Source: an uncultured Candidatus Saccharibacteria bacterium
Lineage (GTDB): Bacteria; Patescibacteriota; Minisyncoccia; Phycocordibacterales; UBA5272
NCBI GenBank assembly: GCA_964457775.1
Contig: CAYWEW010000007.1
Span: 6,961 to 70,960 of the forward strand
Length of the DNA stretch: 64,000 nt
Direction of reading: 5' to 3'
Under the pieces are notes generated by a model that made no database searches, was not told where the DNA came from, and saw nothing but the letters and a program-made list of their open reading frames with translations. Below are positions 8,721 through 51,701 of this stretch, piece after piece; positions within the stretch are counted from its first letter, which is position 1, and each line of letters starts with the position of its first letter. The translations under genes were made by a program, and so were the position numbers.

Positions 8721-8756
8721 AAATTTAATTTATTAACAGTGTGTTATAATTATTTT

Positions 8757-9407
8757 ATGAGTAAAAAACTTCCTACAGCTTTAGTCGCCGTTGATATATG
8801 TATTTTTAAGATTATTGATAATCAGCTTTGTGTTTATGTTACTAAGGTTGATAATGATAATTATAAAAATATGAGATGTTTACCCGGGGGACTTATATAT
8901 TTAAATGAAAATGCAGATGAGACAGTTAAGAGAATTATTGAAGAAAAAACCTGCCTAGAGGATAATAAGGTTTATAGAGAACAACTCTGTTCTTTTTCTA
9001 AAGTAAATAGAGACAAGAGAAGTAGAGTGGTTTCAGTTGCATATCTTGCTATTTATTCTGGTAATAGTAATGAAGGTTTTTTTAATATTAATTCGATAGG
9101 CAAACTGGCTTATGATCATAATGAGATTTTGGAAAAAGCAGAACACAGAATTTCTTCTAAGCTTGAATATACAACTATTGTGAAGAAGTTTATGAAAAAT
9201 AAGTTTACTTATTCTGAATTACAGAAGGCGTATGAGGTTATACTAAGAAAAGAAATAGATAAAAGAAATTTTAGAAAAAAGATAGACAGTTTGGATATTT
9301 TAAAGGAGGCAGGAACAATGAGAAAAGAAGGGAGGATGAGACCAGCTCAAGAATACACTTTCAAATCTGAAAAGGTTCAGAATTTCAAACTCTTTGGAGA
9401 ATTTTAA
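8757..9407 (+). CDS. NrtR-like regulator: Nudix-like domain plus C-terminal winged-helix (Nudix-related transcriptional regulator of NAD metabolism)
   Basis: Nudix-box-like LPGGLIYLNENADETVKRIIEEKT (G-x5-E-x7-R-x-x-E-E). C-terminal FTYSELQKAYEVILRKEIDKRNFRKKI resembles the NrtR wHTH signature. It sits at the head of an NAD-salvage cluster with matching palindromic operators. Start chosen at the second ATG (MSKKL). Confidence 0.55.
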   Translation: MSKKLPTALVAVDICIFKIIDNQLCVYVTKVDNDNYKNMRCLPGGLIYLNENADETVKRIIEEKTCLEDNKVYREQLCSFSKVNRDKRSRVVSVAYLAIYSGNSNEGFFNINSIGKLAYDHNEILEKAEHRISSKLEYTTIVKKFMKNKFTYSELQKAYEVILRKEIDKRNFRKKIDSLDILKEAGTMRKEGRMRPAQEYTFKSEKVQNFKLFGEF

Positions 9408-16469: not shown

Positions 16470-16537
16470 TAAGGTAGATTACCTTGGTAAGGAAGTTCTT
16501 TGTAATAAAATCATTCAACAAACAAGGAGAAGTTATC

Positions 16538-17194
16538 ATGAAAAACAAATGGAAAATCGGTGAAAATGGTAACAAGGATGCACTGGTAATCATTGATGCA
16601 GAAGTCGATTTTGTGAATCCTGGTGGCAAACTTTATGTGTCCGGGGTAGATGGTGAATCAAGTGGAGATGATGTTGTTTTCGGTATAATCGAACTCAACA
16701 AACAGCCGTTCGATTATCGAGTCACCTCAGAAGATGAACATCCTCCTGGCCATATTGAGTTTGATATTTTTCCTCCACATTGTGAAAAAGGAAAAGTTGG
16801 TCAAGAATACGTAGCGGTCCTTGACCCCGTGTATGAAAGCAGTGATGAAAATCTCGTCAAAGGTGATGATGTTAGCATTATTGCCTACTCTATTGCAACG
16901 AGTAAGGAATTCGCCAATCACATTGGCCGTCTTCGTGCAAAGGGCATCAAGCGAATTTTCGTTACTGGCTGGGCATATACCCACTGTGTAGGAGAATCTG
17001 CAATTGCATACGCATCTCAAGGTTTCGAAACCTTTGTTGTGCGTGACCTTACTCGCAGTGTTGCTCCTCCTTACGGAGATCCTGAAGTCATGAAACAAAA
17101 ACTCGCACTTTATGGTGTCAAAGAAGTTTATATGGCAGATATGGAAAGTGCTGACTCATTTCTTTCTGTGGCCATAAGCAGCCCTTGTCCGTGA
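16538..17194 (+). CDS. pncA: Nicotinamidase / isochorismatase-family hydrolase (PncA-like)
   Basis: ALVIIDAEVDF (the ALLLVDxQNDF region of PncA). The Cys FVTGWAYTHCV parallels the catalytic GLATDYCV. AAGGAG ribosome-binding site before the ATG at 16538. Confidence 0.7.
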   Translation: MKNKWKIGENGNKDALVIIDAEVDFVNPGGKLYVSGVDGESSGDDVVFGIIELNKQPFDYRVTSEDEHPPGHIEFDIFPPHCEKGKVGQEYVAVLDPVYESSDENLVKGDDVSIIAYSIATSKEFANHIGRLRAKGIKRIFVTGWAYTHCVGESAIAYASQGFETFVVRDLTRSVAPPYGDPEVMKQKLALYGVKEVYMADMESADSFLSVAISSPCP

Positions 17195-17203
17195 TTTGTT
17201 GTT

Positions 17204-17246
17204 GGGTTTCTGCTCTATGTTTGCTCATTTAGCAGAAACCCTTTTT
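17204..17246 (+). terminator. Rho-independent terminator after pncA
   Basis: gggtttctgct-...-agcagaaaccc followed by ttttt. Confidence 0.65.
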
Positions 17247-17287
17247 ATAAAGTATCTAAATAATTATTTGGGTATTTTTAGAAAATA

Positions 17288-19150
17288 ATGAAAAAAATTT
17301 ATACTAACAATTTAAAAATATCAGTTGCGCAAATGAGTCCAACACCAATGAATGTTGTGGCTAATTTGTCAGCAATTAAAGACTATATAAATAAAGCTAA
17401 AAATACTGGTTCACAAGTAGTTGTCTTTCCTGAGCTTTGTGTTTCTGGATATGTACTTGGTGATAGATTTGAGTACAGCGATTTTATAAATGAATTACAA
17501 GAAGCAAATGATACTATTCGTGAAATGAGTGAAGGTATTGTTGTTGTATGGGGGAACATTGTAAGTGACACTACTAAGATTGGTGAAGACGGACGCATTA
17601 GAAAATATAATGCTGTACTTATTGCGTACAATGGAAAGTGGGTAAGTAACGGTGTACTTCTAGGATTTTTACCAAAGAATAATCTTCCTAAATATCGTAT
17701 CTTTGATGATTCAAGACACTTTTATCCTGCATATAAATTAGTCAAAGAAATGAATTTAGAGTTGAACGATTTTTTTAAAGCTTTTGAAATAAATATTGAT
17801 GGTGTAATTTACAAAATAGCTTTGGCTATTTGTGAAGATATGTGGGAGGATGAATATTCAATAAAATTATCTAAGATATATCAAAAACAAAATATTGATT
17901 TGCTTGTCGACGTATCTGCCTCACCTTGGACACTGGGTAAGTGGCACGCACGTGAGAATATGCTTGTGAAAAGGGTTAAAGATTTGAATGCGCCAATGCT
18001 ATATGTTAATTGTGTTGGGCTACAAAATAATGGCAAGAATTTAATCTGGTTTGATGGAGCTTCTGTATTCGTTAAGGAGGATGGAGAATTTGTTTTTCGT
18101 GCAGAGAATAATATAAATAATTTGTATTCTTTTTCTGTTGCTGATTTAAAAGCAAATAATTCTTATAAACAAAAAAGTGAAGTAGAAGAACTTTATTCCA
18201 ATATCACAAGTGCAATGTATGAGTTCTATAAAGATTTTAATAAAGTAGTTGTTGGATTGTCAGGTGGCATAGATTCAGCACTTACACTTGCTTTACTTTG
18301 TGCTGTTTTACCAAAAGAAAAAATTCTTACAGTTAATATGCCAACTAGATTTAATTCTTCCACTACTAAAGATTTGGCTAAGAAATGTGCAGAGAATTTT
18401 GGTGTTGAGTATAAAGTAGTAGCAATTGATGAATTATTCGAAGCACAATGTAAAGTACTTTTGGATTCAGGTTTATCATCACTTAATACTTTAGTAAAAG
18501 AGAATATTCAAGCTCGTCTTCGTTTACAACAACTCGCAACTATTTCGGCATCTTATGGTGGGGTGTTTACCAACAATGGAAACAAGACAGAGGTATCCCT
18601 TAATTACTTTACACTTTATGGAGATGCAGGCGGATCATCAGCATTTCTTGGAGATCTTTGGAAAGGACAAGTGTATGAATTATCTAAATATATTAATTTA
18701 ATTAATAACAAAGAACTTATTCCAGAAGGAATTATAAATATTATTCCAAGTGCTGAACTTTCAGAAAATCAAAATGTAGACGAAGGGAAAGGGGATCCAA
18801 TCTTTTATGAATATCACGACAAATTACTTTTGGCTTTTGTTGAATCTCGTATAGGTATTACGGATATTCTTGTGAAATATGAGGCAGGCACCCTTGAAAA
18901 ATATTTGAAGTGTGAAGAAGGTACAATCGCAAAATATTTTAAGACAACAGCTGAATTCATTAATAATCTAGAATGGGCATGGAATGCATACAACACAGAA
19001 TATAAACGAGTACAGTTACCACCAGTATTTCTAGCATCTCGCAGAGCTTTTGGTTTTGACAGAAGAGACACTATCGCACCAGCTTTTTTCTCCCAAGAAT
19101 ATGTAACACTAAAAGAAAAACTCCTTACTTCATCTGATACTGCTACATAA
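17288..19150 (+). CDS. nadE: Glutamine-dependent NAD+ synthetase (N-terminal CN-hydrolase/nitrilase domain plus C-terminal NadE domain)
   Basis: PP-loop VVVGLSGGIDSA and an N-terminal carbon-nitrogen hydrolase fold. 620 aa. Confidence 0.9.
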   Translation: MKKIYTNNLKISVAQMSPTPMNVVANLSAIKDYINKAKNTGSQVVVFPELCVSGYVLGDRFEYSDFINELQEANDTIREMSEGIVVVWGNIVSDTTKIGEDGRIRKYNAVLIAYNGKWVSNGVLLGFLPKNNLPKYRIFDDSRHFYPAYKLVKEMNLELNDFFKAFEINIDGVIYKIALAICEDMWEDEYSIKLSKIYQKQNIDLLVDVSASPWTLGKWHARENMLVKRVKDLNAPMLYVNCVGLQNNGKNLIWFDGASVFVKEDGEFVFRAENNINNLYSFSVADLKANNSYKQKSEVEELYSNITSAMYEFYKDFNKVVVGLSGGIDSALTLALLCAVLPKEKILTVNMPTRFNSSTTKDLAKKCAENFGVEYKVVAIDELFEAQCKVLLDSGLSSLNTLVKENIQARLRLQQLATISASYGGVFTNNGNKTEVSLNYFTLYGDAGGSSAFLGDLWKGQVYELSKYINLINNKELIPEGIINIIPSAELSENQNVDEGKGDPIFYEYHDKLLLAFVESRIGITDILVKYEAGTLEKYLKCEEGTIAKYFKTTAEFINNLEWAWNAYNTEYKRVQLPPVFLASRRAFGFDRRDTIAPAFFSQEYVTLKEKLLTSSDTAT

Positions 19151-19212
19151 CAGGATGCAGTGTCAGATGAACCGTAGTTCTTTGTTAATTTTAAGGAAAG
19201 GAAGGGAATCAA

Positions 19213-20523
19213 ATGAACCCGAAACTTCGTGAGCTTATTGAAGAAACGATTAGGATTGTTCGCAGTAAGGAATTTGTTCCGCCTGTTCAAAATGTAACAG
19301 ATATTGATGTTTACAAATTATTCATGATGCAATTTATCAGGCATTATTACCCAGATGTTGAAGCAACTTTCAAGTTGACCGTAAGAGATAAAGCGATAAG
19401 ACTTTGGAAGTATGTTGACCAAGATGAGCTTCGTCAATCTTTTGACCACATGAGGTCACTTTCGCTACGAAAGACTGACCGATATTATCTTCGTGGCATG
19501 GATCTCTACGACAAGTACATGTTTAGCGAAGATTTTCTTTCTTCTTTCGGAAGTTTTCATCTTCCGGAGTACAAGATTGACCACAAAGATGGGATTATGG
19601 ATGTTCAATTTCCTGGTCTGTGGTCAGAGAGCTCTCTTTGGGAAACTGGCGGAATGGCTGTTATTTCTGAGTTGTACTATCGCGGATTTTTGAAGGAGCT
19701 TACTGATGATCAAATACGTGACCTCTATATAGTTGCGGATAACAGACTTCAGAATGATCTACTTCGAATCAAAAAGAATCCTTGGGTTCGATTTGCTGAT
19801 TTCGGACATCGTCGTCGTCATAGTTTTCTTTGGCAGAAGTATGTCATTGGTGAAACCAAACGTGTTCTCGGTGATCAGTTCATCGGTACCTCGGATGTCT
19901 GGATGGCTTTTCATTATGACTTGAACGTGATTGGTACGAATGCTCATGAATTGCCAATGGTAGTAACGGCAATTGCTAAGAGCGATGAGGAAATGCGTCA
20001 AGCTCAATACCAAGTTCTTTGGCAGTGGCAAGAGATGTACGGCAAGGGTCTACGCATCATTCTTCCTGACACTTATGGGTCTGAGCAGTTTTTTGCAAAT
20101 GCACCTAAGTGGTTATTGGAGTGGCGTGGTCAAAGGCAGGATTCTGGAGACCCTATTACTGAAATTGATAGGTACAAGGATTGGCTCATTTCTAATGGGG
20201 TTAATCCCAATGAAAGAATCTCTCTCCCTTCCGATGGTCTTGATGTTTCGTCGATGATTTCAATCGCGTCGCATTATGAAGGTAAGCATGTAACTGGTTT
20301 TGGTTACGGTACGGGCCTCACCAATAACTTCAATGGCATTCTACCTGGGAATGAAGATTTTCGGTCATTCTCAATGGTGATAAAAGCCTATTTGGCAAAT
20401 GGTAATCCTTGCGTGAAGTTGCCAAACGATATCAATAAGGCAACAGGGGAAGCTTCTGCAAAAGAGCGCTATCTCAGAGTCTTTGGTCGACAGCATCGAG
20501 TCGAAAGAGAAGTGTTTGTTTGA
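19213..20523 (+). CDS. pncB: Nicotinate phosphoribosyltransferase (PncB family)
   Basis: DVYKLFMMQ, FADFGHRRRHS (the FxDFGTRRR motif), IGTSDV and GTNAHE motifs of the type II PRTase NAPRTase family. Confidence 0.8.
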   Translation: MNPKLRELIEETIRIVRSKEFVPPVQNVTDIDVYKLFMMQFIRHYYPDVEATFKLTVRDKAIRLWKYVDQDELRQSFDHMRSLSLRKTDRYYLRGMDLYDKYMFSEDFLSSFGSFHLPEYKIDHKDGIMDVQFPGLWSESSLWETGGMAVISELYYRGFLKELTDDQIRDLYIVADNRLQNDLLRIKKNPWVRFADFGHRRRHSFLWQKYVIGETKRVLGDQFIGTSDVWMAFHYDLNVIGTNAHELPMVVTAIAKSDEEMRQAQYQVLWQWQEMYGKGLRIILPDTYGSEQFFANAPKWLLEWRGQRQDSGDPITEIDRYKDWLISNGVNPNERISLPSDGLDVSSMISIASHYEGKHVTGFGYGTGLTNNFNGILPGNEDFRSFSMVIKAYLANGNPCVKLPNDINKATGEASAKERYLRVFGRQHRVEREVFV

Positions 20524-20532
20524 AAAACTTTG

Positions 20533-20567
20533 AATCCGGTCAATATATTTTGACCGGATTTTTCTTT
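20533..20567 (+). terminator. Rho-independent terminator after pncB
   Basis: aatccggtcaa-tatattt-tgaccggatt followed by tttcttttat. Confidence 0.7.
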
Positions 20568-20588
20568 TATCTGGGTATTTAATTTTAC

Positions 20589-20628
20589 TTGCATTATATT
20601 TTATATAGTGTATAATGAACACTATATA
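20589..20628. promoter_or_regulatory. nadM promoter TTGCAT-16-TATAAT with the palindrome TATATAGTGT-ATAATGA-ACACTATATA (candidate NrtR operator 4) overlapping the -10
   Basis: Same TAGTGT-N7-ACACTA core and the same TTGCAT -35 as the pncA promoter. Confidence 0.5.
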
Positions 20629-20639
20629 ATTAATAAACT

Positions 20640-21554
20640 ATGAAAATAATCAAAAATATCAATCAATCAAAACAAAAGACCGTCGGAGTTGTAATCGGTA
20701 GATTTCAGCTTGCTAATTTGCACGAAGGTCACAAACACTTAATTGATACAGTTAAATCAAAGAATGATGAGATTTGTATTTTGCTTGGTTCATCAGGCGG
20801 GGCACCAACTAAGAGGAATCCACTTCCTTTTTCCATAAGAAAAGAAATGATTCAGGATTTATATAAAGATGCTAAGGTTTTTGAAATAGTTGATTCCAAA
20901 AATAAGTGGTCAGAGAATGTCGATAAAATTCTGAAGAAGAATTTTAAGAATAAAAATATTCGATTATACGGATCTAGAGATTCATTTTCCAAGTGGTACT
21001 TCGGAGAATTTCCTTTTGTCTATGTAAAAGAGATGCACGATATATCTGGAACAGAAATTAGAAATAGTAATATTTTACCAAAAGAAAAAGAAAGTTTTCG
21101 TCTCGGTATGATTGAAAGTCACAAGGTTAGATATCCTATTTCTTATCAAACAGCTGATATTGTTTTATTTGATGAAAAGAAAAGCAAAATTGTTTTAGGC
21201 CAAAAGGAGGATGTAAAAACTTGGTTCTTTCCTGGGGGCTTCGTTGATCCAAGTGATCTTTCTTTAGAAGATTCTGCAAAAAGAGAGTTAAGTGAAGAAG
21301 TGGTAAATATTGAAACAAAAGACGATGTTAAATATTTGGGCTCAATTAGAGTGAACGACCACAGATATAGAAATGAGGAAGACAAGATTATGACAAGTCT
21401 TTTTCTTATTAAATATAAAAGCGGAAAGATAAAAGCAGGAGATGATTTAAAAAGAGTAAAATGGTTTTCTTTAAAAGAGGCCAAGGAAGTCATTTCTGAC
21501 ACTCATACACCATTATTAAATATGTTATTAGAAAAGTACAGTAATGTATTATAA
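20640..21554 (+). CDS. nadM: Bifunctional NMN adenylyltransferase (NadM-type) / Nudix ADP-ribose pyrophosphatase
   Basis: N-terminal GRFQLANLHEGH (the HxGH nucleotidyltransferase motif). C-terminal Nudix box FPGGFVDPSDLSLEDSAKRELSEEV. Confidence 0.8.
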   Translation: MKIIKNINQSKQKTVGVVIGRFQLANLHEGHKHLIDTVKSKNDEICILLGSSGGAPTKRNPLPFSIRKEMIQDLYKDAKVFEIVDSKNKWSENVDKILKKNFKNKNIRLYGSRDSFSKWYFGEFPFVYVKEMHDISGTEIRNSNILPKEKESFRLGMIESHKVRYPISYQTADIVLFDEKKSKIVLGQKEDVKTWFFPGGFVDPSDLSLEDSAKRELSEEVVNIETKDDVKYLGSIRVNDHRYRNEEDKIMTSLFLIKYKSGKIKAGDDLKRVKWFSLKEAKEVISDTHTPLLNMLLEKYSNVL

Positions 21555-22266
21555 TATAGCAATGAAAAAGTTTTATATTATTGGGATTAATAACGAGGAA
21601 ATAAAAGATGAGTTTATTGGTCTTGGCTTTGTTTTGGATAAAGATAATCCCGATTTTGTGATTAGTTTTGGTGGGGATGGTACTTTACTTAAAAGTGAAT
21701 TTGAATATCCAGGTATACCAAAATTATTTTTGAAAAATACTAATGTTGGTAAATTGGCTCAAAATAAAAAGAATCAAGAAATAATTGATGGTTTTGTTAA
21801 TGGCCATTTTTTTATAAAAGAATATAAAAAATTAAAGATTACATTAAATCACGATAAATTTTTAATTGCATGTAATGAAATTAATATACATAATGCCAAT
21901 CCTCGCTCTGCAATAAGATTTAAAATTAAAGTTGATGATGATTATCTTCATCATGAGCTTATCGGAGACGGGGCGATTATTGCAAATGCTCTTGGTTCAA
22001 CTGGTTATTATAAATCGATTACCGACAGTTATTTTGAAGTTGGTATTGGTGTGGCATTTAATAATTCAACAGAAGCTGCTGACCACGTAGTGTTAGATGC
22101 GAAGAGAAAGATAAAGATTGAAATTACTCGTGGACCAGCAGAAGTGTTTGCAGATAATCAAGAAGAGTTTTTGAATGCAAAAGAAGGGGATGTTTTAGAA
22201 ATTGGAGAGATGGAAGAAACAGTAAAGCTTATCAGAATTCATGATGAAATTTTGGAGCAGGAATAG
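21544..22266 (+). CDS. nadK: NAD kinase (the start may be the internal ATG at 21565)
   Basis: GGDGT motif (ISFGGDGTLL) and GDGAIIANALGSTGYYKS (the DGxxxxTPTGSTAY motif). Confidence 0.8.
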   Translation: MYYNIAMKKFYIIGINNEEIKDEFIGLGFVLDKDNPDFVISFGGDGTLLKSEFEYPGIPKLFLKNTNVGKLAQNKKNQEIIDGFVNGHFFIKEYKKLKITLNHDKFLIACNEINIHNANPRSAIRFKIKVDDDYLHHELIGDGAIIANALGSTGYYKSITDSYFEVGIGVAFNNSTEAADHVVLDAKRKIKIEITRGPAEVFADNQEEFLNAKEGDVLEIGEMEETVKLIRIHDEILEQE

Positions 22267-23405: not shown

Positions 23406-23714
23406 GTGGAAAATCCAAAAGATGTGGTTAGGAAGCTTAATTTGTACATACTTCAAGTCATTTCTCAGTTGGCAAGAAATGATATTGCTGACACCATACT
23501 TCGATTCGATATTTCAAGAGAAGTTGCTGAATCTTTGGCAAAATTGAATACTGCCGAACTTGACGATCTGTCAATGTCACCAGTTTTTATGTTCGACATT
23601 AATCAAAAAAGTATTTTGGATGCTTTGAAAGACAGAGAACAAGGACATGGTTATAGAAGTTTACATAATTCTATAGTTGGTGTTTGTGCATTGATTAATG
23701 ATGAGGATAAATGA
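23406..23714 (+). CDS. flhD: FlhD-like transcriptional activator subunit (GTG start)
   Basis: 102 aa. KLNLYILQVISQLARNDIADTILRFDI...LAKLNTAELDDLSMSPVFMFDIN is colinear with E. coli FlhD ([27 protein letters not shown]...[25 protein letters not shown]). The 4-nt overlap with flhC gives the operon arrangement. Confidence 0.6.
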   Translation: MENPKDVVRKLNLYILQVISQLARNDIADTILRFDISREVAESLAKLNTAELDDLSMSPVFMFDINQKSILDALKDREQGHGYRSLHNSIVGVCALINDEDK

Positions 23715-24271
23715 TGAGAAAAACTACCCCTTATCAACAAATGATTGACACATCGTTAGCGGTAAGACTGATTCAGCTTGGAGCCAGGTTAATAGTTCTT
23801 TCAAATGAGCTGAATGTTTCCAAAGAAAAGTTGCTTGCGCTATACAAAGAAGTTAGCGGTGGAGATTCATCACCAAAAGGAATGTTACCATCTTCCGTTG
23901 ATTGGTTTGTGACATGGCAACCATGCGCACACTCTTCTTTGTTCATGGCGTACTACAAATTTTTTGAATCAACAACGACATTGTCTAAAGTAGAGTTATT
24001 GATAAAATCTTATGAAATGTATCTTGAGGAAGTTTCTCGACATAGGAATTATGATGAGGAACAACCAGTTTTATCTATAACTAGAGCGTGGATGATGTTG
24101 AGGATGATAAATGTAAATCACCCATTGCTTGTACTAACAAGATGCAAAAATTGCATTGGAAATTTTGTCACCAGAAGTAATGAGGGTGATAAGTTTTACG
24201 AAAACTATGTTTGTGGTTTCTGTAACAAACCAATAAGAGCAGGGAAAACTGAAAAATATTCCTTTGTTTGA
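23711..24271 (+). CDS. flhC: FlhC-like transcriptional activator subunit with the zinc-ribbon cysteines
   Basis: 186 aa. LGARLIVLSNELNVSKEKLLALYKEVSGGDSSPKGMLPSSVDWFVTWQPCAHSSLF parallels E. coli FlhC [55 protein letters not shown]. The four Zn-ligand Cys (CKNC...CGFC) are conserved. Confidence 0.8.
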   Translation: MMRKTTPYQQMIDTSLAVRLIQLGARLIVLSNELNVSKEKLLALYKEVSGGDSSPKGMLPSSVDWFVTWQPCAHSSLFMAYYKFFESTTTLSKVELLIKSYEMYLEEVSRHRNYDEEQPVLSITRAWMMLRMINVNHPLLVLTRCKNCIGNFVTRSNEGDKFYENYVCGFCNKPIRAGKTEKYSFV

Positions 24272-32936: not shown

Positions 32937-35789
32937 ATGAAGTTATACGACCATAAAAATAATGACGCTAAGTGGCAGAAGGATTGGGAAGATAAAAAAA
33001 TATATCAAACTCCCGTCAAACCAAACGGCAAGAAGTCATACATTCTAGACATGTTCCCATATCCATCAGGAGACGGCCTACATGTTGGTCATCCAAAAGG
33101 ATATATTGCAACAGATATTTATTCGAGATTTAAGCGTATGAATGGCTATGACGTGCTGCACCCAATGGGATGGGATGCCTTTGGTCTTCCCGCAGAACAA
33201 TATGCTATCAAAAATAAAATACATCCTAAAATTGCAGTAGAAAAAAATGTTGCAATGTTCAAGCAACAACTTTCTCATCTTGGTCTTAGTTATGATTGGT
33301 CACGAGAAATAGACACAACAGATCCTAATTTTTATAAATGGACTCAGTGGATTTTTACAAAGTTATACGAGAAGGGTTTAGCTTATGAAAGTAATGAACC
33401 AATCAATTGGTGTCCAACATGTAAGACCGGTCTTGCGAATGAAGATGTTAATGCAGATGGGACGTGTGAGAGATGTGATACTAAAGTAGAGAAGAAACCA
33501 ATTCGACAGTGGGTGCTTAAGATTACTGATTATGCAGATAGAATGCTTTCGGATTTAGACACTCTCAATTGGCCTGAAGGGGTGAAGACTGCTCAGAAGA
33601 ATTGGATTGGACGTAGTGAAGGTGCAGAATTTGATTTCAAATTAGTTGACGCACCACAGGAGTCAGTGAGAATTTTTACAACTAGAGCAGATACACTTTT
33701 TGGTGCAACGTATGTAGCTATATCAGCCGAACTAGCTCAATCATGGTTGAAGATGAATTTTAAAATGAGTGAAGATGTCAAGAAGTATATTGTAGCTACA
33801 TTGGAAGATCAAAAGAAAGAAAATGATTATTCTGTCGTTCCTGAAAAAACAGGAGTGTTCACGGGCGTATATGCAATTAATCCTGTAACACAAGAAAAGC
33901 TTCCAGTATGGATTGCGAATTATGTAATGGGTGGAGTTGGCACTGGTGCAATCATGGCCGTACCAGCTCACGATGAACGTGATTATGAATTTGCAAAGAA
34001 ATATAATCTACCAATTAAGCAAGTTGTTCTTCCAGTTTTTGTCGATAAAGTTAATCCACCTAAAGTAGACGCTGAAGATACTGTTCGTCATGGTGTGATT
34101 GTTCTTGTTAAACACTGGTCCGAAGAAAAGTATTTGATTGATTATTCTCCGAAGTTTAATTGGAAGTGTTTATTCACAGGTGGTATAGATGAAGGGGAAG
34201 ACCCACTGGATTCTGCTGTTAGAGAAATAAGAGAAGAAACTGGGTATCAGAATATAAAGGAAGTAAAATATATTCCACTTGAACATGTTGATAAATTCCA
34301 TGCACCACATAAAGGGGTTAATAGAGTTGCATATCAAAAAAATATCTTTATTCAGCTTCTAGATGGAGAAACAAAAGAAAGAACAGAAGAAGAAAAAGAG
34401 CTTCACCATATTTCTTGGTTAACAAAAGAAGAGATGAGAAAAACGATTTCACTTCCAAATCATCTTTTTATTTTTGAGACGGCATTACAAGATGGAAATG
34501 TTTTGACTGAAGACGGTATTCTTTCTAATTCTGGTAATTATTCTAATTTGGAATCAAAAGAAGTAAGAGAAAAAATCATAAAAGATTTTGGTGGTAAAAA
34601 AGTTGTAAAGTACAAAATACAAGATTGGGTATTTGCTCGTCAAAGATATTGGGGTGAACCATTTCCTGTTGTTCGTGATGAAAATGGAAAAGTGTATATG
34701 GTTGACGAAAGTGAACTTCCAGTACTACTTCCAAATGTAGAGAGCTATGAACCAACAGATACTGGAGAGTCACCACTTGCAACTATTACGGACTGGGTAA
34801 ATGTAAAAGGCTTTATTACTGACAAGGGGACATTCAAACAATCAGCTGACGGAAAAGTATTCACTCGCGAAACAAACACAATGCCACAGTGGGCAGGTTC
34901 ATCATGGTACTATCTTCGCTTTGCAGATCCGAGAAATGATAAAGCACTTATTGATCCAGAGATAGAAAAGTCGTGGTTACCAGTTGATGTATATGTTGGA
35001 GGGGATCATGCAACAAGACATCTTATCTATGCGAGATTTTGGCACAAATTTTTGTATGACATTGGAGTCGTGTCATCAATCGAACCATTTTCACGTTTAG
35101 AGTTCTTAGGATTTATTCTTGCTGAAGATGGACGTAAGATGAGTAAGAGATGGGGGAATATTATCAATCCAGACGATGTGGTAGCCGAGCATGGAGCAGA
35201 CACACTTCGAGTGTATGAAATGTTCATGGCACCATTTGAACAAACTGCCTCATGGAGTACATCAAGTATTAAAGGTTCAGATAAATTTTTGGACAGAGTG
35301 TATTCACTTCAATCAAAAATTGTAGAGAAAAGTAATGTGACCAATGTACTTCATAAGACAATTAAAAAAGTCACAGAAGATATTGAGAGTTTTAAGTTCA
35401 ACACAGCAATATCTCAGATGATGATATTAACTAATAGTATGGAAGATGGGGAATTTACAAAAGATGATTACAGTACTTTCTTGCAAATTTTAGCCCCGTT
35501 TGCACCACATCTTACAGAGGAAATTTGGTCCAAATTAGGGCAAAATACATCAATTCATAGCTCGGTTTGGCCATCATTTGATGATAAATATCTAGTCACA
35601 AATGAGGTAACTATAGCAATTCAGATAAGCGGAAAGATGAGGGGAACAACTATTACAACACGAGATTTGTCAGATGACAAGATGATAGAATTGGTAAAAA
35701 CCCTTGAAATATATAGGAAATATGTCGGTGATGCCGTTCCTAAAAAAATAATAGTAATTCCAAATCGGCTAATTAATATAATAATTTGA
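32937..35789 (+). CDS. leuS: Leucyl-tRNA synthetase carrying an inserted Nudix-hydrolase domain
   Basis: HIGH (HVGH), KMSKS (RKMSKRWGN), the CP1 region and AHDERDYEFAKKYNLPI. A Nudix box GGIDEGEDPLDSAVREIREETG is inserted upstream of the conserved leucyl-specific segment ILSNSGNY...YKIQDW, which aligns to E. coli VLFNSGEF...YRLRDW. Confidence 0.95.
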   Translation: MKLYDHKNNDAKWQKDWEDKKIYQTPVKPNGKKSYILDMFPYPSGDGLHVGHPKGYIATDIYSRFKRMNGYDVLHPMGWDAFGLPAEQYAIKNKIHPKIAVEKNVAMFKQQLSHLGLSYDWSREIDTTDPNFYKWTQWIFTKLYEKGLAYESNEPINWCPTCKTGLANEDVNADGTCERCDTKVEKKPIRQWVLKITDYADRMLSDLDTLNWPEGVKTAQKNWIGRSEGAEFDFKLVDAPQESVRIFTTRADTLFGATYVAISAELAQSWLKMNFKMSEDVKKYIVATLEDQKKENDYSVVPEKTGVFTGVYAINPVTQEKLPVWIANYVMGGVGTGAIMAVPAHDERDYEFAKKYNLPIKQVVLPVFVDKVNPPKVDAEDTVRHGVIVLVKHWSEEKYLIDYSPKFNWKCLFTGGIDEGEDPLDSAVREIREETGYQNIKEVKYIPLEHVDKFHAPHKGVNRVAYQKNIFIQLLDGETKERTEEEKELHHISWLTKEEMRKTISLPNHLFIFETALQDGNVLTEDGILSNSGNYSNLESKEVREKIIKDFGGKKVVKYKIQDWVFARQRYWGEPFPVVRDENGKVYMVDESELPVLLPNVESYEPTDTGESPLATITDWVNVKGFITDKGTFKQSADGKVFTRETNTMPQWAGSSWYYLRFADPRNDKALIDPEIEKSWLPVDVYVGGDHATRHLIYARFWHKFLYDIGVVSSIEPFSRLEFLGFILAEDGRKMSKRWGNIINPDDVVAEHGADTLRVYEMFMAPFEQTASWSTSSIKGSDKFLDRVYSLQSKIVEKSNVTNVLHKTIKKVTEDIESFKFNTAISQMMILTNSMEDGEFTKDDYSTFLQILAPFAPHLTEEIWSKLGQNTSIHSSVWPSFDDKYLVTNEVTIAIQISGKMRGTTITTRDLSDDKMIELVKTLEIYRKYVGDAVPKKIIVIPNRLINIII

Positions 35790-35836: not shown

Positions 35837-36865
35837 ATGTCAGGCATTACTTTCAAACCAAAAGCAATTTCTAAGAAACTGTTGACCACACTCAATCCAC
35901 GTACACGTGAGATTGTGGTTAATCGTTACGGGCTAGAGAAGGAGAATCGTATGACTCTTGAGGCAATCGGTAAGACATACGATATTACTCGTGAGCGTGT
36001 TCGTCAGATTGAAAACTTTGCTCTTGGTTCAATCAAGAAGTCAAAAGAATACAAGGAAAGTGCTTTTGTTTTTGAGGAACTCAAAAGTATCATCAAAGAA
36101 TTAGGCTCTGTTGTATCAGAGGACCATTTAATGCGTCACATTTCAAAGGACCCAGTTATTCAGAATCATATTAATCTATATCTCGCTTTAGGTGAAGATT
36201 TTGAAAAGCATAAAGAGAGTGATAATTTCCAAGCTCACTTTTCAACTGACAATAAAACTGCAAAGCATGTTCGTGAAGCACTCGATAAGTTGTACTCTTC
36301 TATAAGTGAAGAAGATTTAGTAAGTGAAGAAGAAATCTTCAGTCGTTTTACAGGACATCTATCAGAACTTGTTTCAGAATATAAAGAGAATAAAGATATT
36401 ATTAATCGCTATCTAGCCTTATCAAAAGTTGTAGGTAAAAATCAATTAAGTGAATGGGGTCGCACATCTTCTCCACACGTAAAGGCCCGTGGTATTAAGG
36501 ATTATGCATATCTCATTATGCGTCGAGCTGGTCGCCCTATGCACTTTAAGGAAGTTGCTACAGAAATTAACAAGACATTTGGAAAGAAAGCTCATGTTGC
36601 AACATGTCATAATGAACTTATTAAGGACTCACGTTTCGTTTTAGTTGGTCGTGGCATGTACGGACTAAAGGACTGGGGTCATACAGGAGGCGTTGTTCGT
36701 GATGTTATTGCAGAAGTTTTGAAAGAAGCTGGACGCCCACTTCATAAAGATGAAGTTATCAAGAGAGTATTAGCAAAGAGAATTGTAAAACCAAATACTA
36801 TTCTTGTTAATCTTCAGAACTCAAAATTTTTCCGTAAAGTAGCAGGGGATTATACATTGGCATAA
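35837..36865 (+). CDS. Sigma-70 region-4 domain plus C-terminal HARE-HTH domain protein
   Basis: EIVVNRYGL...TLEAIGKTYDITRERVRQIE is a classic sigma70_r4. The C-terminal GRPMHFKEVATEI matches HARE-HTH as in the RpoE delta subunit. Confidence 0.65.
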   Translation: MSGITFKPKAISKKLLTTLNPRTREIVVNRYGLEKENRMTLEAIGKTYDITRERVRQIENFALGSIKKSKEYKESAFVFEELKSIIKELGSVVSEDHLMRHISKDPVIQNHINLYLALGEDFEKHKESDNFQAHFSTDNKTAKHVREALDKLYSSISEEDLVSEEEIFSRFTGHLSELVSEYKENKDIINRYLALSKVVGKNQLSEWGRTSSPHVKARGIKDYAYLIMRRAGRPMHFKEVATEINKTFGKKAHVATCHNELIKDSRFVLVGRGMYGLKDWGHTGGVVRDVIAEVLKEAGRPLHKDEVIKRVLAKRIVKPNTILVNLQNSKFFRKVAGDYTLA

Positions 36866-36869
36866 TTAG

Positions 36870-36965
36870 TCAAAAGTCTAAAGTCTGTAAAGTTAAAAGT
36901 AGTAAATGCATAACCTAAAGGGTTATGCATTTACTTTATAAACTTTCAACTTTATAGACTTTTGA
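36870..36965. repeat. About 95-bp imperfect inverted repeat with a central perfect 12-bp hairpin (aaatgcataacc-taaag-ggttatgcattt)
   Basis: Read from the sequence. The arms tcaaaagtctaaagtctgtaaagtt / aactttcaactttatagacttttga flank the hairpin at 36903..36933. Confidence 0.6.
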
Positions 36966-38482
36966 TGTTATACTTTCTTAATATGCAACTCCTTATTGAT
37001 ATAGCATTATCCCTAATATATTTGTGCGCTTTTTTACTTATATGCGCATGGATATGGCGCTTTTGGAAGATGTATGTCAATCAAAAGTTTCTTGATAAAT
37101 TTAATAAGGACAGTATTTTGCTTGAAATTAAACTTCCAAGAGAAATAATGAAGTCTCCACTTGCAGCAGAAATTGCCCTTACTTCGCTACTTCAAAGTGG
37201 TGGAGTTGGACATTGGTATGCCAGAGAGTTTCAAGGAAATCTTCCTGCTTATTCTTCACTTGAAATTGCTTCATTAGAAGGAATTGTTCATTTTTATATT
37301 AGAATTAATAAAAAATTTAAAGGAACTGTAGAATCAAGTTTTTATGCTCAATATCCTGGTATTGAAATAGTTGAAGCAGATGACTATACAAAACTTATTA
37401 GGTATCATCATTTATCAAAAGATACTTCTATGTGGGGAGCAGAGTTTCCTTTATCAGGTAGCTGGAAACCAACTAATCCAGATACTGGTAAGCCGTATGG
37501 TGAAGACTATAAAATGAAAGCCGATTTTCTTCCGATTAAAACTTACGTTGATTATGGTTTGGATAAAGATCCGAAAGAAGAATTCAAAACAGATCCAATT
37601 ACTTCACAGATTGAATTTATGGGTAGTGTTGGAAAGGGGGAATATTTTTGGTATCAAATTCTTGTACAAGATGAGAGTGTATACAGTGGGAAAAAATTTC
37701 CAAAATTTTATTTTAATGAAGTAAATGGAAAACATATGTCTTTGGTAGATATGGCTGACGAAAGAAAGAAACAGATACGTACAGCTTCACACATAATTAA
37801 AGGTGATCCTTTTTTGGATAAATATGGTGACCAAGAATTTAAAAAGAGCGGTAAAAAGGATGCCGAAGGTAAAGATATTTTAATTCCAGCTTTACAACCA
37901 AAAACAAAAGCTGAAAATAAAAAAGAAGTAGATTTAACACAGTCAGAGAAAGAAGAAATCGAAGCAATCAACAAAAAAGTTTCAAAACCTCTTGGTCTTG
38001 TATTGGTGCGATTAATATATGTAGCTAAAAAGGAGAACTTTAGTCCACAACATATTCAAAATATATTAAGTCTAGGGAAACCATTTAAAGGAATTAACTC
38101 ATTTGGTCTTAGCCCAACTGACCCATACGACTTTCCTTGGCAAAATCTTGGAGGCAAAAGAACTGCTTGGAGAGGTGAAGAGATGTTTAGTGCATATGTT
38201 GAAAGAGAGGGATTTTTCCCGCACACAAAAGACAGGAAAAATTTGGATGCATGGGAAGATACAGCGTTTTATCCATACTCTATGAAATCTAGAAAAATAT
38301 TTAGAATGATATATGAGGCAATATTTTATCCGTTTGAGCACCCAACTCCTAAGAATGTGTCTATTATGAATACTGAAGAATTGGCGACATTGTGGCACCT
38401 ACCTGGTCAAGTTGCTGGCACACCAACACTCCCTCGTATTGATAGTAATAAGGGTATGGCACCTACTAATCTTCCTCAGTAA
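36962..38482 (+). CDS. Hypothetical N-terminally membrane-anchored protein (506 aa)
   Basis: One N-terminal TM helix and a Lys-rich linker. No family recognised. Confidence 0.5.
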   Translation: MMLYFLNMQLLIDIALSLIYLCAFLLICAWIWRFWKMYVNQKFLDKFNKDSILLEIKLPREIMKSPLAAEIALTSLLQSGGVGHWYAREFQGNLPAYSSLEIASLEGIVHFYIRINKKFKGTVESSFYAQYPGIEIVEADDYTKLIRYHHLSKDTSMWGAEFPLSGSWKPTNPDTGKPYGEDYKMKADFLPIKTYVDYGLDKDPKEEFKTDPITSQIEFMGSVGKGEYFWYQILVQDESVYSGKKFPKFYFNEVNGKHMSLVDMADERKKQIRTASHIIKGDPFLDKYGDQEFKKSGKKDAEGKDILIPALQPKTKAENKKEVDLTQSEKEEIEAINKKVSKPLGLVLVRLIYVAKKENFSPQHIQNILSLGKPFKGINSFGLSPTDPYDFPWQNLGGKRTAWRGEEMFSAYVEREGFFPHTKDRKNLDAWEDTAFYPYSMKSRKIFRMIYEAIFYPFEHPTPKNVSIMNTEELATLWHLPGQVAGTPTLPRIDSNKGMAPTNLPQ

Positions 38483-51293: not shown

Positions 51294-51701
51294 TTAATCA
51301 GCGAAATATTTTTCTAGTATTTTAAAATAAGTATTCCCATCATCTAGTTTTTTATAATTATCTTTTGTAACCCAAGAAAAGTTGGAGTGTTCATCACTCA
51401 TTTTGACTTCTCCAGAAACATAGTCACATTTATATCCAACAAGGAAAAGTTTATTACCAGCTAGTCTGTGTTCAGAAGGGATTATATAATTCCATGTCGC
51501 AAAAGGTTCACCAACGTTAATTTCTAATCCAGTCTCTTCCATAACTTCACGTTTAAGAGATTCAATTAAGTCAGTTTCATGTTCTTGAATTTTGCCACCA
51601 GGGTAGTCTACTCTCCACCTTGAGTCAGCTAGTACGAGTACCTCATCTCCTTTTTTGATAAAGGCTTTTTGTCCAACATAATATAAGGCATCTTCTTTCA
51701 T
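51294..51701 (-). CDS. Nudix hydrolase (MutT-like)
   Basis: Nudix box GGKIQEHETDLIESLKREVMEETG. Confidence 0.8.
   Translation of the reverse strand: MKEDALYYVGQKAFIKKGDEVLVLADSRWRVDYPGGKIQEHETDLIESLKREVMEETGLEINVGEPFATWNYIIPSEHRLAGNKLFLVGYKCDYVSGEVKMSDEHSNFSWVTKDNYKKLDDGNTYFKILEKYFAD

What the first reader, a model, noticed from the sequence alone, without database searches (positions are those of the whole stretch)
34030..34610. Nudix hydrolase domain inserted into leucyl-tRNA synthetase
After the conserved AHDERDYEFAKKYNLPI segment, leuS carries an extra domain of about 140 aa with a complete Nudix box (GGIDEGEDPLDSAVREIREETG at about 34180-34245). It lies immediately before the retained leucyl-specific segment ILSNSGNY...KYKIQDW, which aligns with E. 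coli VLFNSGEF...YRLRDW, so the Leu-specific region is kept and the Nudix is inserted. Bacterial LeuRS is not known to carry a Nudix module. It could hydrolyse a nucleotide by-product such as Ap4A made by aaRSs, or an ADP-ribosylated or capped RNA. Together with NrtR, NadM-Nudix and the stand-alone Nudix at 51294, this window has four Nudix folds, pointing to heavy use of Nudix chemistry in this lineage.
Basis: seen in the sequence. Interest (0 to 1): 0.6.

Follow-up and report, generated by a model that had tools for sequence, protein, structure and literature searches.

The report
Exchangeable Nudix domain inside leucyl-tRNA synthetase
The enzyme that loads leucine onto tRNA here carries a complete, conserved Nudix hydrolase domain nested in a loop of its proofreading domain, and in related tiny bacteria this extra module is present, absent or swapped for a very different version even between near-identical genomes, a pattern I found described in no paper.

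Summary
The core observation is real. leuS (32937-35789, 950 aa) carries a 159-aa insert (aa 365-523, nt 34029-34505). It scores as Pfam NUDIX (E 4e-14), has a perfect Nudix box, and models confidently as a Nudix fold.

The anatomy was mislabelled. The insert replaces a 15-aa loop inside the CP1 editing domain. The flanking "ILSNSG...KYKIQDW" is the end of CP1, not the leucine-specific domain. That domain is missing here, replaced by a short linker before KMSKS.

The module is common in Patescibacteria. Records labelled DPANN archaea have it too. At least 235 species-representative genomes carry it. The catalytic Glu/Gly residues are invariant while the rest falls to 20-30% identity.

The new result is that the insert behaves as a cassette:
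- There are at least 14 discrete Nudix types.
- Insert identity and host identity are uncoupled.
- Two genomes 99-100% identical over 14.8 kb carry unrelated (25% aa) Nudix inserts.
- Another close pair differs by a clean presence/absence.
- The same Nudix family sits at three LeuRS sites, in one to three copies, and in a few ProRS.

Weak similarity points to RppH and ApnA hydrolases. The substrate is inferred, not shown. I found no paper describing this.

The parts
32937..35789 (+). leuS, bacterial-type leucyl-tRNA synthetase, 950 aa, hosting the insert
   Evidence: ORF. TIGR00396 scores 933 bits against a cut-off of 548. E=9e-194 to T. thermophilus LeuRS 1H3N. Full-length AF2 model has pLDDT 86.9 and pTM 0.74.
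33081..33092 (+). HIGH signature (H49-V-G-H52) of the class I catalytic core
   Evidence: Read from the translation. H49, G51 and H52 are invariant in 41 Nudix-bearing LeuRS.
33597..34028 (+). CP1 editing domain, part before the insert (aa 221-364)
   Evidence: Pfam PF13603 covers aa 221-368 and profile positions 1-144 of 185. It includes the T-rich editing motif TTRADT (aa 248-253, nt 33678-33695) and AHDERD with the universal Asp (aa 344-349, nt 33966-33983). T248, T249, R250, D252, T253, H345, D346, R348 and D349 are invariant.
34029..34505 (+). Nudix insert (aa 365-523), type 2 of at least 14 cassette types
   Evidence: PF00293 at E=3.7e-14. It replaces Tth 363-377. AF2 model of the insert alone has pLDDT 93.5 and pTM 0.87. 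Foldseek hits in the PDB are all Nudix hydrolases. Type assignment.
34179..34247 (+). Nudix box GGIDEGEDPLDSAVREIREETGY (aa 415-437)
   Evidence: Exact match to GX5EX7REUXEEXGU. G415, E430, E433, E434 and G436 are invariant across inserts that are otherwise 20-30% identical. The box lies on helix 423-435 of the model.
34296..34301 (+). X-loop aromatic pair F454-H455, 17-18 residues after the Nudix box
   Evidence: Across 76 inserts, position +17 is Y 37 / F 22 / G 15 and position +18 is F 43 / H 15 / Y 15. PMC5389931 gives a Tyr at this position as the marker for ApnA hydrolases.
34506..34616 (+). CP1 editing domain, part after the insert (aa 524-560).
   Evidence: Aligns to Tth 378-417. Helix 540-550 and strand 554-559 lead back to the catalytic core.
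35121..35150 (+). Short linker AEDGR (aa 729-733) in place of the leucine-specific domain, followed by KMSKR (aa 734-738)
   Evidence: Query 729 aligns to Tth 579 and query 735 to Tth 638. The position of the domain before KMSKS, and the Mycoplasma mobile GKDG precedent, come from PMC3643597. K734, M735, S736 and K737 are invariant.

Best explanation
Shown:
- This is a working bacterial-type LeuRS. Its synthetic and editing motifs are intact.
- A surface loop near the C-terminal end of the CP1 editing domain hosts a complete, independently folding Nudix domain.
- That domain belongs to a small Nudix family found almost only inside aminoacyl-tRNA synthetases. The catalytic Nudix-box residues are invariant across it.
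- The module is accessory. Close relatives have the same LeuRS with an empty loop, a different Nudix type or another domain. Exchange happens by homologous recombination using the conserved leuS sequence on either side.

Inferred:
- The domain is an active Mg2+-dependent pyrophosphohydrolase of the RppH / ApnA-hydrolase kind.
- Tethered to the synthetase, it most likely hydrolyses dinucleoside polyphosphates (Ap4A and relatives), which synthetases form when aminoacyl-adenylate reacts with ATP. It may also hydrolyse the RNA caps derived from them. This would return AMP and ATP to a cell that depends on scavenged nucleotides.
- The link to LeuRS is one of place and dosage. It is not a change in leucylation itself.
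For: Domain and fold:
- Pfam NUDIX E=3.7e-14.
- AF2 model of the insert has pLDDT 93.5. The insert keeps pLDDT 86-95 in the full-length model with no disordered linkers.
- All Foldseek top hits are Nudix hydrolases.

Host intact:
- HIGH, KMSKS, the T-rich motif and AHDxRD are invariant in 41 Nudix-LeuRS.

Selection for catalysis:
- G, E, EE and G of the box are invariant in 76 inserts that are otherwise 20-30% identical. K459, N462, R463, E486 and W494 are conserved across the family.
- In type-2 comparisons the Nudix has lower dN (0.14-0.27) than the LeuRS core (0.25-0.60) in 6 of 8 pairs, while synonymous sites are near saturation. Where dS can be estimated, omega is about 0.08-0.18.

A dedicated synthetase-associated family:
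- phmmer of the insert against 1.84 billion representatives gives only 344 hits.
- Most of the best 150 are LeuRS or LeuRS fragments. The remainder are 40-50 short proteins, apparently stand-alone, and a ProRS.
- Five ProRS carry the domain.
- The family occupies three separate LeuRS sites, in 1-3 copies.

Accessory and exchangeable:
-.

Substrate class:
- Best PDB profile hits include the lupin, human and Aquifex Ap4A hydrolases.
- Best fold hits include Tth Ndx1 Ap6A hydrolase, Aquifex Ap4A hydrolase and the mycobacterial MutT1/Rv2985 ApnA hydrolases.
- RppH models are the commonest weak NCBIfam match, 29 of 32 inserts.
- An aromatic residue is conserved at the X-loop position that marks ApnA hydrolases.
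Against: - No substrate evidence is direct.
- All matches to named Nudix subfamilies fall far below their cut-offs (about 29 bits against 116 for RppH). The family is its own branch.
- The window's own X-loop residue is Phe, not the marker Tyr.
- To my knowledge LeuRS is not among the strong Ap4A producers. This rests on memory and was not checked.
- A simple clean-up role does not obviously explain at least 14 deeply diverged types, within-species replacement, or multi-copy variants.
- The other domains hosted at the insertion sites are not all nucleotide enzymes. They include a PF10706 domain (aminoglycoside-2''-adenylyltransferase family, as I recall it), ASCH, Ham1, HAD, a methyltransferase and an alpha/beta-hydrolase. 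LeuRS may simply be a permissive carrier.
Confidence: 0.4

Rival explanations
1. RNA-end enzyme. The Nudix acts on RNA rather than on free nucleotides, as an RppH-like 5'-pyrophosphohydrolase or decapping enzyme (5'-ppp, NAD or Np4A caps). LeuRS supplies the RNA-binding platform.
For: RppH and YtkD models are the most frequent weak NCBIfam matches, 29/32 and 23/32. Dcp2, AvrM14 and RppH appear among the PDB profile and fold hits. The host domain CP1 is an RNA-end-binding module.
Against: Scores are far below family cut-offs. CP1 binds the tRNA 3' end, not the 5' end. The same Nudix also works from two other LeuRS sites and from a ProRS with different geometry. Mature tRNA 5' ends are monophosphates, by general knowledge.
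Confidence: 0.2
2. Piggy-backing housekeeping enzyme. This is a general nucleotide-pool sanitiser (MutT, NudB or NTP pyrophosphatase-like). In tiny genomes it has been fused into a highly expressed essential gene for co-expression, with no mechanistic link to aminoacylation.
For: Other house-cleaning or nucleotide enzymes occupy LeuRS insertion sites in relatives: Ham1/ITPase in P0101 and HAD in P0116. Weak matches to NudB (21/32), MutT (9/32) and NudI also occur. Presence/absence between near-identical genomes shows it is dispensable for LeuRS.
Against: The family is almost confined to synthetases, with 344 hits in 1.84 billion representatives. It recurs at three LeuRS sites, in multiple copies and in ProRS. 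That argues for a specific association rather than a chance fusion.
Confidence: 0.15
3. Conflict module. The CP1 slot is a hypervariable accessory locus whose cassettes counter toxins, phage factors or nucleotide-analogue inhibitors that target tRNA-Leu or LeuRS. One example would be removing a 3'-pyrophosphate or ADP-ribose from the tRNA CCA end that CP1 binds.
For: There are at least 14 discrete types, and insert identity is bimodal and independent of host identity. Allelic replacement occurs between genomes that are 99-100% identical. Presence/absence polymorphism is seen. An alternative PF10706 cassette (aminoglycoside-2''-adenylyltransferase family, as I recall it) sits at the same site in the LeuRS closest to the window's (P0009). 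The host domain holds the tRNA 3' end.
Against: No toxin, antitoxin or defence genes were seen next to leuS in the six related loci whose genes I looked at (L082-L087). The neighbourhood is conserved housekeeping synteny. No relatives were found in viral contigs. A repair enzyme tied to one synthetase would serve only one tRNA family. The diversity could equally come from neutral recombination between deeply diverged alleles.
Confidence: 0.1
4. Non-catalytic module. The Nudix fold serves as a ligand sensor or structural spacer that tunes CP1 movement, as in NrtR where a Nudix fold binds ADP-ribose without hydrolysing it.
For: A minority of inserts have altered box residues: E to D or M at the GX5E position, R to K, and one RE to RK. 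A Nudix used as a sensor exists in this very window (NrtR).
Against: The metal-binding and catalytic E430, E433 and E434 are invariant or nearly so (75-76 of 76) in the inserts from the 120 best LeuRS matches. In NrtR-type sensors the box is usually degenerate, by general knowledge. LeuRS works without the module in close relatives.
Confidence: 0.05

Closest known systems
Bacterial-type LeuRS (T. thermophilus 1H3N/2BYT, E. coli 4AQ7/4ARC)
   Same: Same catalytic core, CP1 editing domain with T-rich and AHDxRD motifs, anticodon-binding and C-terminal domains. E=9e-194 to 1H3N.
   Different: A 159-aa Nudix domain replaces the 15-aa CP1 loop (Tth 363-377). The leucine-specific domain is missing.
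Mycoplasma mobile LeuRS (3ZIU), a minimal LeuRS with GKDG in place of the leucine-specific domain (PMC3643597)
   Same: Here too the leucine-specific domain is replaced by a short Gly/Asp-containing linker (AEDGR) directly before KMSKS.
   Different: The M. mobile enzyme also lacks CP1. This enzyme keeps CP1 and enlarges it with a Nudix domain.
Nudix ApnA hydrolases and RppH/NudH (Aquifex aq_158 3I7U, T. thermophilus Ndx1 1VC8, M. tuberculosis Rv2985 9CXX, E. coli RppH 4S2X)
   Same: Same fold and full Nudix box, with an aromatic residue in the X-loop about 17 residues downstream. These are the best fold and profile matches.
   Different: Only 14-24% identity. All curated family models score far below cut-off. 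This domain is nested inside a synthetase instead of free-standing, and it has its own motif K..NR plus E486 and W494.
IleRS with an N-acetyltransferase domain (NCBIfam NF040702, ileS_w_GNAT)
   Same: Another bacterial class Ia synthetase catalogued as carrying an extra enzyme domain. It appeared among the weak matches.
   Different: Different guest domain and different host. I did not examine where the GNAT sits or whether it is exchangeable.
NadM-Nudix bifunctional enzyme (present in this window at 20640-21554)
   Same: A Nudix domain fused to a nucleotide-handling enzyme.
   Different: It is an end-to-end fusion with an ADP-ribose pyrophosphatase type of Nudix, not a nested insertion. The insert profile matches it only weakly (E=8e-8).

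Membership tests
Nudix hydrolase superfamily (PF00293) | Nudix box GX5EX7REUXEEXGU | tested here: met
   GGIDEGEDPLDSAVREIREETGY at aa 415-437. Pfam scores 53.3 bits against a gathering score of 21.1.
Nudix hydrolase superfamily (PF00293) | Alpha/beta/alpha Nudix fold with the box on a loop-helix-loop | tested here: met
   AF2 pLDDT 93.5 and pTM 0.87. The box lies on helix 423-435. 497 PDB matches at E<=1e-3, and all 50 listed are Nudix proteins.
Nudix hydrolase superfamily (PF00293) | Divalent-cation-dependent hydrolysis of a nucleoside diphosphate linked to X | not testable with these tools
   Only inferred, from invariant catalytic Glu residues across 76 inserts and low dN.
Bacterial leucyl-tRNA synthetase (TIGR00396 leuS_bact) | Score above the curated equivalog cut-off; HIGH and KMSKS motifs | tested here: met
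   933 bits against 548. HVGH at aa 49-52 and KMSKR at aa 734-738.
Bacterial leucyl-tRNA synthetase (TIGR00396 leuS_bact) | CP1 editing site (T-rich motif, conserved Asp of AHDxRD) | tested here: met
   TTRADT at aa 248-253 and AHDERD at aa 344-349, invariant in 41 homologues. PF13603 at E=2.6e-56.
Bacterial leucyl-tRNA synthetase (TIGR00396 leuS_bact) | Leucine-specific domain before KMSKS (present in most but not all bacterial LeuRS) | tested here: not met
   Tth 580-637 has no counterpart; query 729-735 bridges the gap. The domain is not essential according to PMC3643597, so this does not exclude membership.
Nudix ApnA (diadenosine polyphosphate) hydrolases | Tyrosine in the X-loop 16-18 residues after the Nudix box (Dunn 1999, as cited in PMC5389931) | tested here: inconclusive
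   The window has F454/H455. Across the family, Y is at +17 in 37 of 76 and at +18 in 15 of 76, with F otherwise.
RppH RNA pyrophosphohydrolase (NCBIfam PRK00714 models) | Score above the curated cut-off | tested here: not met
   Best score 28.9 bits against a cut-off of 116. This is the commonest weak match, in 29 of 32 inserts.
ADP-ribose pyrophosphatase / NADH pyrophosphatase Nudix subfamilies | Pro about 15-16 residues after the box (ADPRase), or the SQPWPFPQS array (NADH pyrophosphatase) | tested here: not met
   Residues +15 and +16 are D and K, and no SQPWPF motif is present. TIGR00052 scores 18 bits against a cut-off of 79.6, and NudC scores 13 against 158.
MutT 8-oxo-dGTPase (TIGR00586) | Score above the curated cut-off | tested here: not met
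   17.3 bits against 97.9.
Intein or other self-splicing / homing insertion | Cys/Ser/Thr at the insert start, His-Asn at its end, a nucleophile after it, and a homing endonuclease | tested here: not met
   The insert starts LPVFVD and ends NVLTED. There is no endonuclease domain and there are no flanking repeats.

The most novel reading that the evidence does not exclude
The CP1 loop of LeuRS in ultra-small bacteria (and, by record title, DPANN archaea) is a conflict-driven, recombination-shuffled accessory slot. Its many Nudix types, and occasional other enzymes, are kept by diversifying or balancing selection. They would detoxify or repair something aimed at the synthetase-tRNA pair, for example a pyrophosphorylated or ADP-ribosylated tRNA 3' end held by CP1, or adenylate-mimicking inhibitors. 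That would be a defence or repair function built into a housekeeping translation enzyme.
Probability: 0.1. Interest if true: 0.9.

Novelty: new variant of a known kind. Interest (0 to 1): 0.7.

Why it matters
- Aminoacyl-tRNA synthetases with extra enzymatic domains are well known in eukaryotes and rare in bacteria. To my knowledge a hydrolase nested inside the proofreading domain has not been described, and my literature searches found nothing.
- Here the architecture is a widespread feature of Patescibacteria, and by record title of DPANN archaea. It is not a single oddity.
- It comes with a population-genetic signature unusual for a core translation gene. The module has discrete allelic types, presence/absence variation, and replacement between otherwise identical genomes.
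- If the Nudix removes synthetase by-products such as Ap4A, it would be a direct physical link between alarmone metabolism and aminoacylation in organisms that cannot make their own nucleotides.
- If it acts on tRNA or RNA ends, it would be a new quality-control or defence step.
- Either way the hypothesis is testable. The domain is small, confidently modelled, excisable, and has natural 'empty' and 'swapped' controls with the same LeuRS backbone.

Tried and rejected
- **Word-index search with the insert alone.** It found nothing. This is a limit of the tool, since the same sequence is inside P0001. The exhaustive phmmer search replaced it.
- **Genome scan with the broad insert alignment A1.** It was repeated with the type-2 alignment A2. 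The count of 235 genomes is therefore a lower bound biased towards type 2.
- **NJ tree of LeuRS cores.** I hoped it would show a single gain. Instead Nudix-bearing and Nudix-free sequences were interleaved throughout, and the topology was star-like. I dropped the tree in favour of pairwise core-versus-insert identities and DNA comparisons.
- **In-situ divergence of the insert.** Rejected as the only explanation. Identity is bimodal at every level of core identity, and one pair has 99% identical cores with 25% identical inserts.
- **Assembly chimera.** Rejected. Both alleles of the L082/L083 pair were seen on two contigs each.
- **Intein or mobile element.** Rejected.
- **Phage origin.** No relatives in viral contigs.
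- **NADAR gene next to leuS in L082-L084.** Considered as a clue to ADP-ribose chemistry. It is absent from the window and from the other 84 loci, so I treat it as incidental.
- **GC content of the insert.** It is 0.30-0.36 against 0.35-0.42 in most of the rest of leuS, which is not distinctive.
- **dN/dS.** Synonymous sites are saturated in most comparisons, so only a few omega values could be estimated.
- **Geometry of the Nudix active site relative to the editing pocket.** Could not be examined, because model coordinates are not exposed.


Full report
**1. What is there**

The window holds one uninterrupted ORF, 32937-35789 on the + strand, encoding 950 aa. It is a bacterial-type leucyl-tRNA synthetase. 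TIGR00396 scores 933 bits against a cut-off of 548. The match to T. thermophilus LeuRS 1H3N has E=9e-194.

Pfam finds the class I catalytic domain, the LeuRS editing domain, the anticodon-binding domain and a NUDIX domain. The NUDIX hit covers aa 388-502 at E=3.7e-14, with 53 bits against a gathering score of 21. The box GGIDEGEDPLDSAVREIREETGY (aa 415-437, nt 34179-34247) fits GX5EX7REUXEEXGU exactly. The exact protein is on three independent contigs. No ORF of 80 aa or more lies on the opposite strand across the insert.

**2. Where the insert sits**

The alignment to T. thermophilus LeuRS comes in three blocks:
- Query 4-364 aligns to Tth 4-362.
- Query 524-729 aligns to Tth 378-579.
- Query 735-950 aligns to Tth 638-876.

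So aa 365-523 (nt 34029-34505, 159 aa) replace a 15-residue loop, Tth 363-377. That loop lies inside the CP1 editing domain. The Pfam editing-domain profile is interrupted at position 144 of 185. In Nudix-free relatives the same loop is 5-38 residues long, so it is a naturally variable loop.

The real leucine-specific domain is inserted just before KMSKS and spans A571-M617 in E. coli (PMC3643597). It is absent here. Only AEDGR precedes KMSKR, which recalls the GKDG linker of Mycoplasma mobile LeuRS described in that paper.

The synthetic motifs are HVGH (aa 49-52) and KMSKR (aa 734-738). The editing motifs are TTRADT (aa 248-253) and AHDERD (aa 344-349). All are intact and invariant in 41 Nudix-bearing homologues.

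**3. Is it a real Nudix fold?**

An AF2 model of aa 362-526, built with a 32-sequence alignment, has pLDDT 93.5 and pTM 0.87. In the full-length model (pLDDT 86.9, pTM 0.74) the insert keeps pLDDT 86-95. The connections to CP1 are short and ordered, and the REx2EE segment lies on helix 423-435.

Foldseek against the PDB gives 497 matches at E<=1e-3, and all 50 listed are Nudix proteins. The list is led by:
- 2AZW, of unknown function.
- T. thermophilus Ndx1, an Ap6A hydrolase.
- Aquifex Ap4A hydrolase.
- Mycobacterial MutT1/Rv2985, ApnA hydrolases.
- NudI and RppH.

**4. How widespread, and under what constraint**

Of the 120 best LeuRS matches in the large protein collection, 80 carry this Nudix family and 76 have it at this site. 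The names given by the sources are Nomurabacteria, Parcubacteria and Pacebacteria.

A scan of one genome per species found 235 stretches encoding a relative. This used peptide patterns taken from the window's own type, so it is a lower bound. Of the 80 loci kept, all but three have the order LeuRS-N / Nudix / LeuRS-C or a contig-truncated version of it. The three exceptions (L016, L017, L020) lack the LeuRS core. The records are labelled as follows:
- Many Patescibacteria classes.
- About 13 MAGs labelled DPANN archaea (Woese-, Nano- and Pacearchaeota).
- A few MAGs labelled Clostridia or Bacillota.

I did not verify those labels.

Across inserts that are only 20-30% identical, the invariant positions are G415, E430, E433, E434 and G436. 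Near-invariant positions are K459, N462/R463, E486 and W494.

In eight comparisons with species representatives that carry a type-2 insert, the insert has lower dN (0.14-0.27) than the LeuRS core (0.25-0.60) in six, and synonymous sites are near saturation. Where omega could be estimated it is 0.08-0.18. The domain is under purifying selection that centres on the catalytic residues.

**5. A synthetase-associated Nudix family**

An exhaustive phmmer search of the insert against 1.84 billion representative proteins returned only 344 hits at E<=1e-3. Mapping the best 150 onto the three parts of the query and running Pfam on ten of the hits with little or no LeuRS similarity gave this picture:
- Most are LeuRS or LeuRS fragments.
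- Some 40-50 are short proteins (about 110-300 aa) with no detectable LeuRS sequence; those of 150-200 aa look stand-alone. One of them, P0166, is confirmed as a separate gene next to trigger factor, ClpP, RNase Y and HU.
- Some are free CP1-fragment-plus-Nudix proteins.
- Some are tandem Nudix proteins.
- One is a ProRS.

Five ProRS, with relatives named Nano- or Woesearchaeota, carry the domain between the anticodon-binding and C-terminal domains.

Within LeuRS the same family occupies three different sites:
- The Rossmann-to-CP1 junction (query about 209-241).
- The CP1 loop described here.
- A loop at query about 633-642.

Copy number varies from one to three. This recurrence argues for a real functional tie to synthetases rather than one accidental fusion.

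**6. The insert is an exchangeable cassette**

This is the main new result.

*Discrete types.* The 76 inserts fall into at least 14 types by single linkage at 45% identity. The window carries type 2. Insert identity is bimodal, either 20-30% or 60-90%, at every level of LeuRS-core identity. The correlation between core identity and insert identity is r=0.25.

*Discordant pairs.* Percent identity for selected pairs:

| Pair | Core | Insert |
|---|---|---|
| P0017 / P0018 | 99 | 25 |
| P0007 / P0038 | 95 | 24 |
| P0011 / P0013 | 93 | 19 |

Conversely, type-2 inserts are 64-73% identical between LeuRS whose cores are only 53-55% identical.

*The window's nearest relatives.* The LeuRS cores closest to the window's (about 86-87% identical overall, 87-90% in the N- and C-terminal parts) differ at this site. 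One carries a PF10706 domain there (P0009; as I recall, this Pfam family is aminoglycoside-2''-adenylyltransferase). The others carry nothing (P0008, P0012, P0010).

*DNA-level evidence for replacement.* L082 and L083 come from two different assemblies. They are perfectly syntenic and 99-100% identical over 14.8 kb, apart from two other short variable spots and a segment of about 650 nt inside leuS that is unalignable (32-53% identity). That segment begins exactly after ...KKYGIEIK and ends about 20 residues past the Nudix. Each allele was seen on two contigs.

*DNA-level evidence for presence/absence.* A second syntenic pair has flanks mostly 91-99% identical and LeuRS cores 96.8% identical. 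The two differ by a clean indel of about 440 nt that is the Nudix.

*Mechanism of exchange.* There are no flanking repeats, no intein motifs and no endonuclease. There are no viral relatives. The simplest mechanism is homologous recombination between leuS alleles, using the highly conserved sequence on either side. All these loci share the window's gene order: HIT, holin, a coiled-coil protein, DUF5671, leuS, a sigma-r4/HARE-HTH protein, an unknown protein of about 500 aa, YceG, RNase T and UvrA.

**7. What it probably does**

No curated Nudix subfamily claims the domain. All NCBIfam matches are far below cut-off. The commonest weak matches are:
- RppH models, 29 of 32 inserts.
- YtkD, 23 of 32.
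- NudB, 21 of 32.

Profile hits to the PDB include the lupin, human and Aquifex Ap4A hydrolases, Dcp2 and RppH.

The 'X-loop' about 17 residues after the box carries specificity markers, and a Tyr there marks ApnA hydrolases (PMC5389931). In this family that position holds a conserved aromatic residue. It is Tyr in most members and Phe-His in the window. The Pro marker of ADP-ribose pyrophosphatases and the SQPWPFPQS array of NADH pyrophosphatases are absent.

My best reading has three parts:
- It is an active pyrophosphohydrolase of the RppH/ApnA-hydrolase kind.
- It is tethered to the synthetase.
- It removes dinucleoside polyphosphates that synthetases make from aminoacyl-adenylate plus ATP, or the caps derived from them.

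The fold, the conservation, the accessory status and the recombination are shown. The substrate and the logic of the coupling are inference (confidence 0.4).

The rivals are an RNA-end enzyme, a piggy-backing housekeeping enzyme, a conflict or repair module, and a non-catalytic sensor. The cassette diversity is the observation that the clean-up hypothesis explains least well.

**8. Comparison with what is known, and novelty**

Seven literature searches found no description of a Nudix domain in LeuRS or in any bacterial synthetase. Five were aimed at the combination (LeuRS or aaRS with Nudix, CPR with aaRS insertions, Patescibacteria with Nudix). The other two concerned the X-loop and the LeuRS domains.

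A large review of the Nudix clan has no occurrence of 'tRNA synthetase' in its main text. The library covers open-access papers only, so absence there is not proof. Database annotators have noticed the domain: JGI gives P0118 a LeuRS/MutT name.

Both parts are known kinds, and nested accessory domains in synthetases are known in principle. New here are three things: the combination, its position inside the proofreading domain, and its cassette-like population behaviour. I rate it a new variant of a known kind, with interest 0.7.

Noticed in passing
related proteins P0020, P0029, P0030, P0032, P0035, P0039, P0042, P0112, P0116, P0121-P0123; P0099, P0107, P0114, P0118: LeuRS relatives carry the same Nudix family at two further sites: the Rossmann-to-CP1 junction (query about 209-241) and a loop at query about 633-642. 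Some have two or three copies per protein, and some have it only at the third site.
   Followed up: partly
related proteins P0009, P0004, P0054/P0059, P0101, P0116, P0119: By their precomputed Pfam lists, these relatives hold other enzymes in LeuRS. P0009 has a PF10706 domain (aminoglycoside-2''-adenylyltransferase family, as I recall it) at exactly the window's site. The others are a methyltransferase, ASCH, Ham1/ITPase, HAD and an alpha/beta-hydrolase, assigned to the extra insertions seen at other sites.
   Followed up: partly
P0224, P0269-P0272 (prolyl-tRNA synthetases; relatives named Nano- or Woesearchaeota): The same Nudix family is embedded in a few ProRS between the anticodon-binding domain and the C-terminal domain.
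   Followed up: partly
L015, L025, L028, L030, L033, L034, L036, L037, L040, L045, L047, L059, L067: MAGs labelled DPANN archaea encode a bacterial-type LeuRS with the Nudix at the same site. Their match to the query's C-terminal part (aa 524-950) stops about 25-70 residues before its end. The taxonomic labels were not verified.
   Followed up: no
L016 2659-3594 (also L017, L020; proteins P0182, P0155, P0266): These are free-standing proteins made of a degenerate CP1 editing-domain fragment plus the Nudix, without any LeuRS catalytic core. They occur in MAGs labelled Bacilli. In L016 the T-rich motif is lost and AHDxRD reads AHIEKD.
   Followed up: partly
window 23711-24271 (+): A 186-aa ORF matches Pfam FlhC, the flagellar master regulator subunit, at E=1.5e-57. 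This is unexpected in a Patescibacteria-like genome.
   Followed up: no
window 8739-9407, 16484-22266, 51294-51701: A NAD salvage set is present: NrtR (8739-9407), an isochorismatase/PncA-like protein (16484), NadE (17288), NAPRTase (19213), NadM-Nudix (20640-21554) and NAD kinase (21544). There is also an unrelated stand-alone Nudix at 51294-51701 (-).
   Followed up: yes
L082 10857-11141 and 13242-13658, compared with L083: Besides the leuS cassette, the two near-identical genomes differ at two other short spots. One is inside the unknown protein of about 500 aa downstream of the sigma-r4/HARE-HTH gene (window counterpart 36962-38482, no Pfam hit). The other is at a small ORF before uvrA.
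   Followed up: no
L082-L084 5437-5916: A NADAR-domain gene lies directly upstream of leuS in these genomes only. It is absent from the window and from the other 84 loci.
   Followed up: yes
window 35837-36865 (+): The gene directly downstream of leuS encodes sigma-70 region 4 plus a HARE-HTH domain (342 aa). It is conserved in that position in all related loci examined.
   Followed up: no
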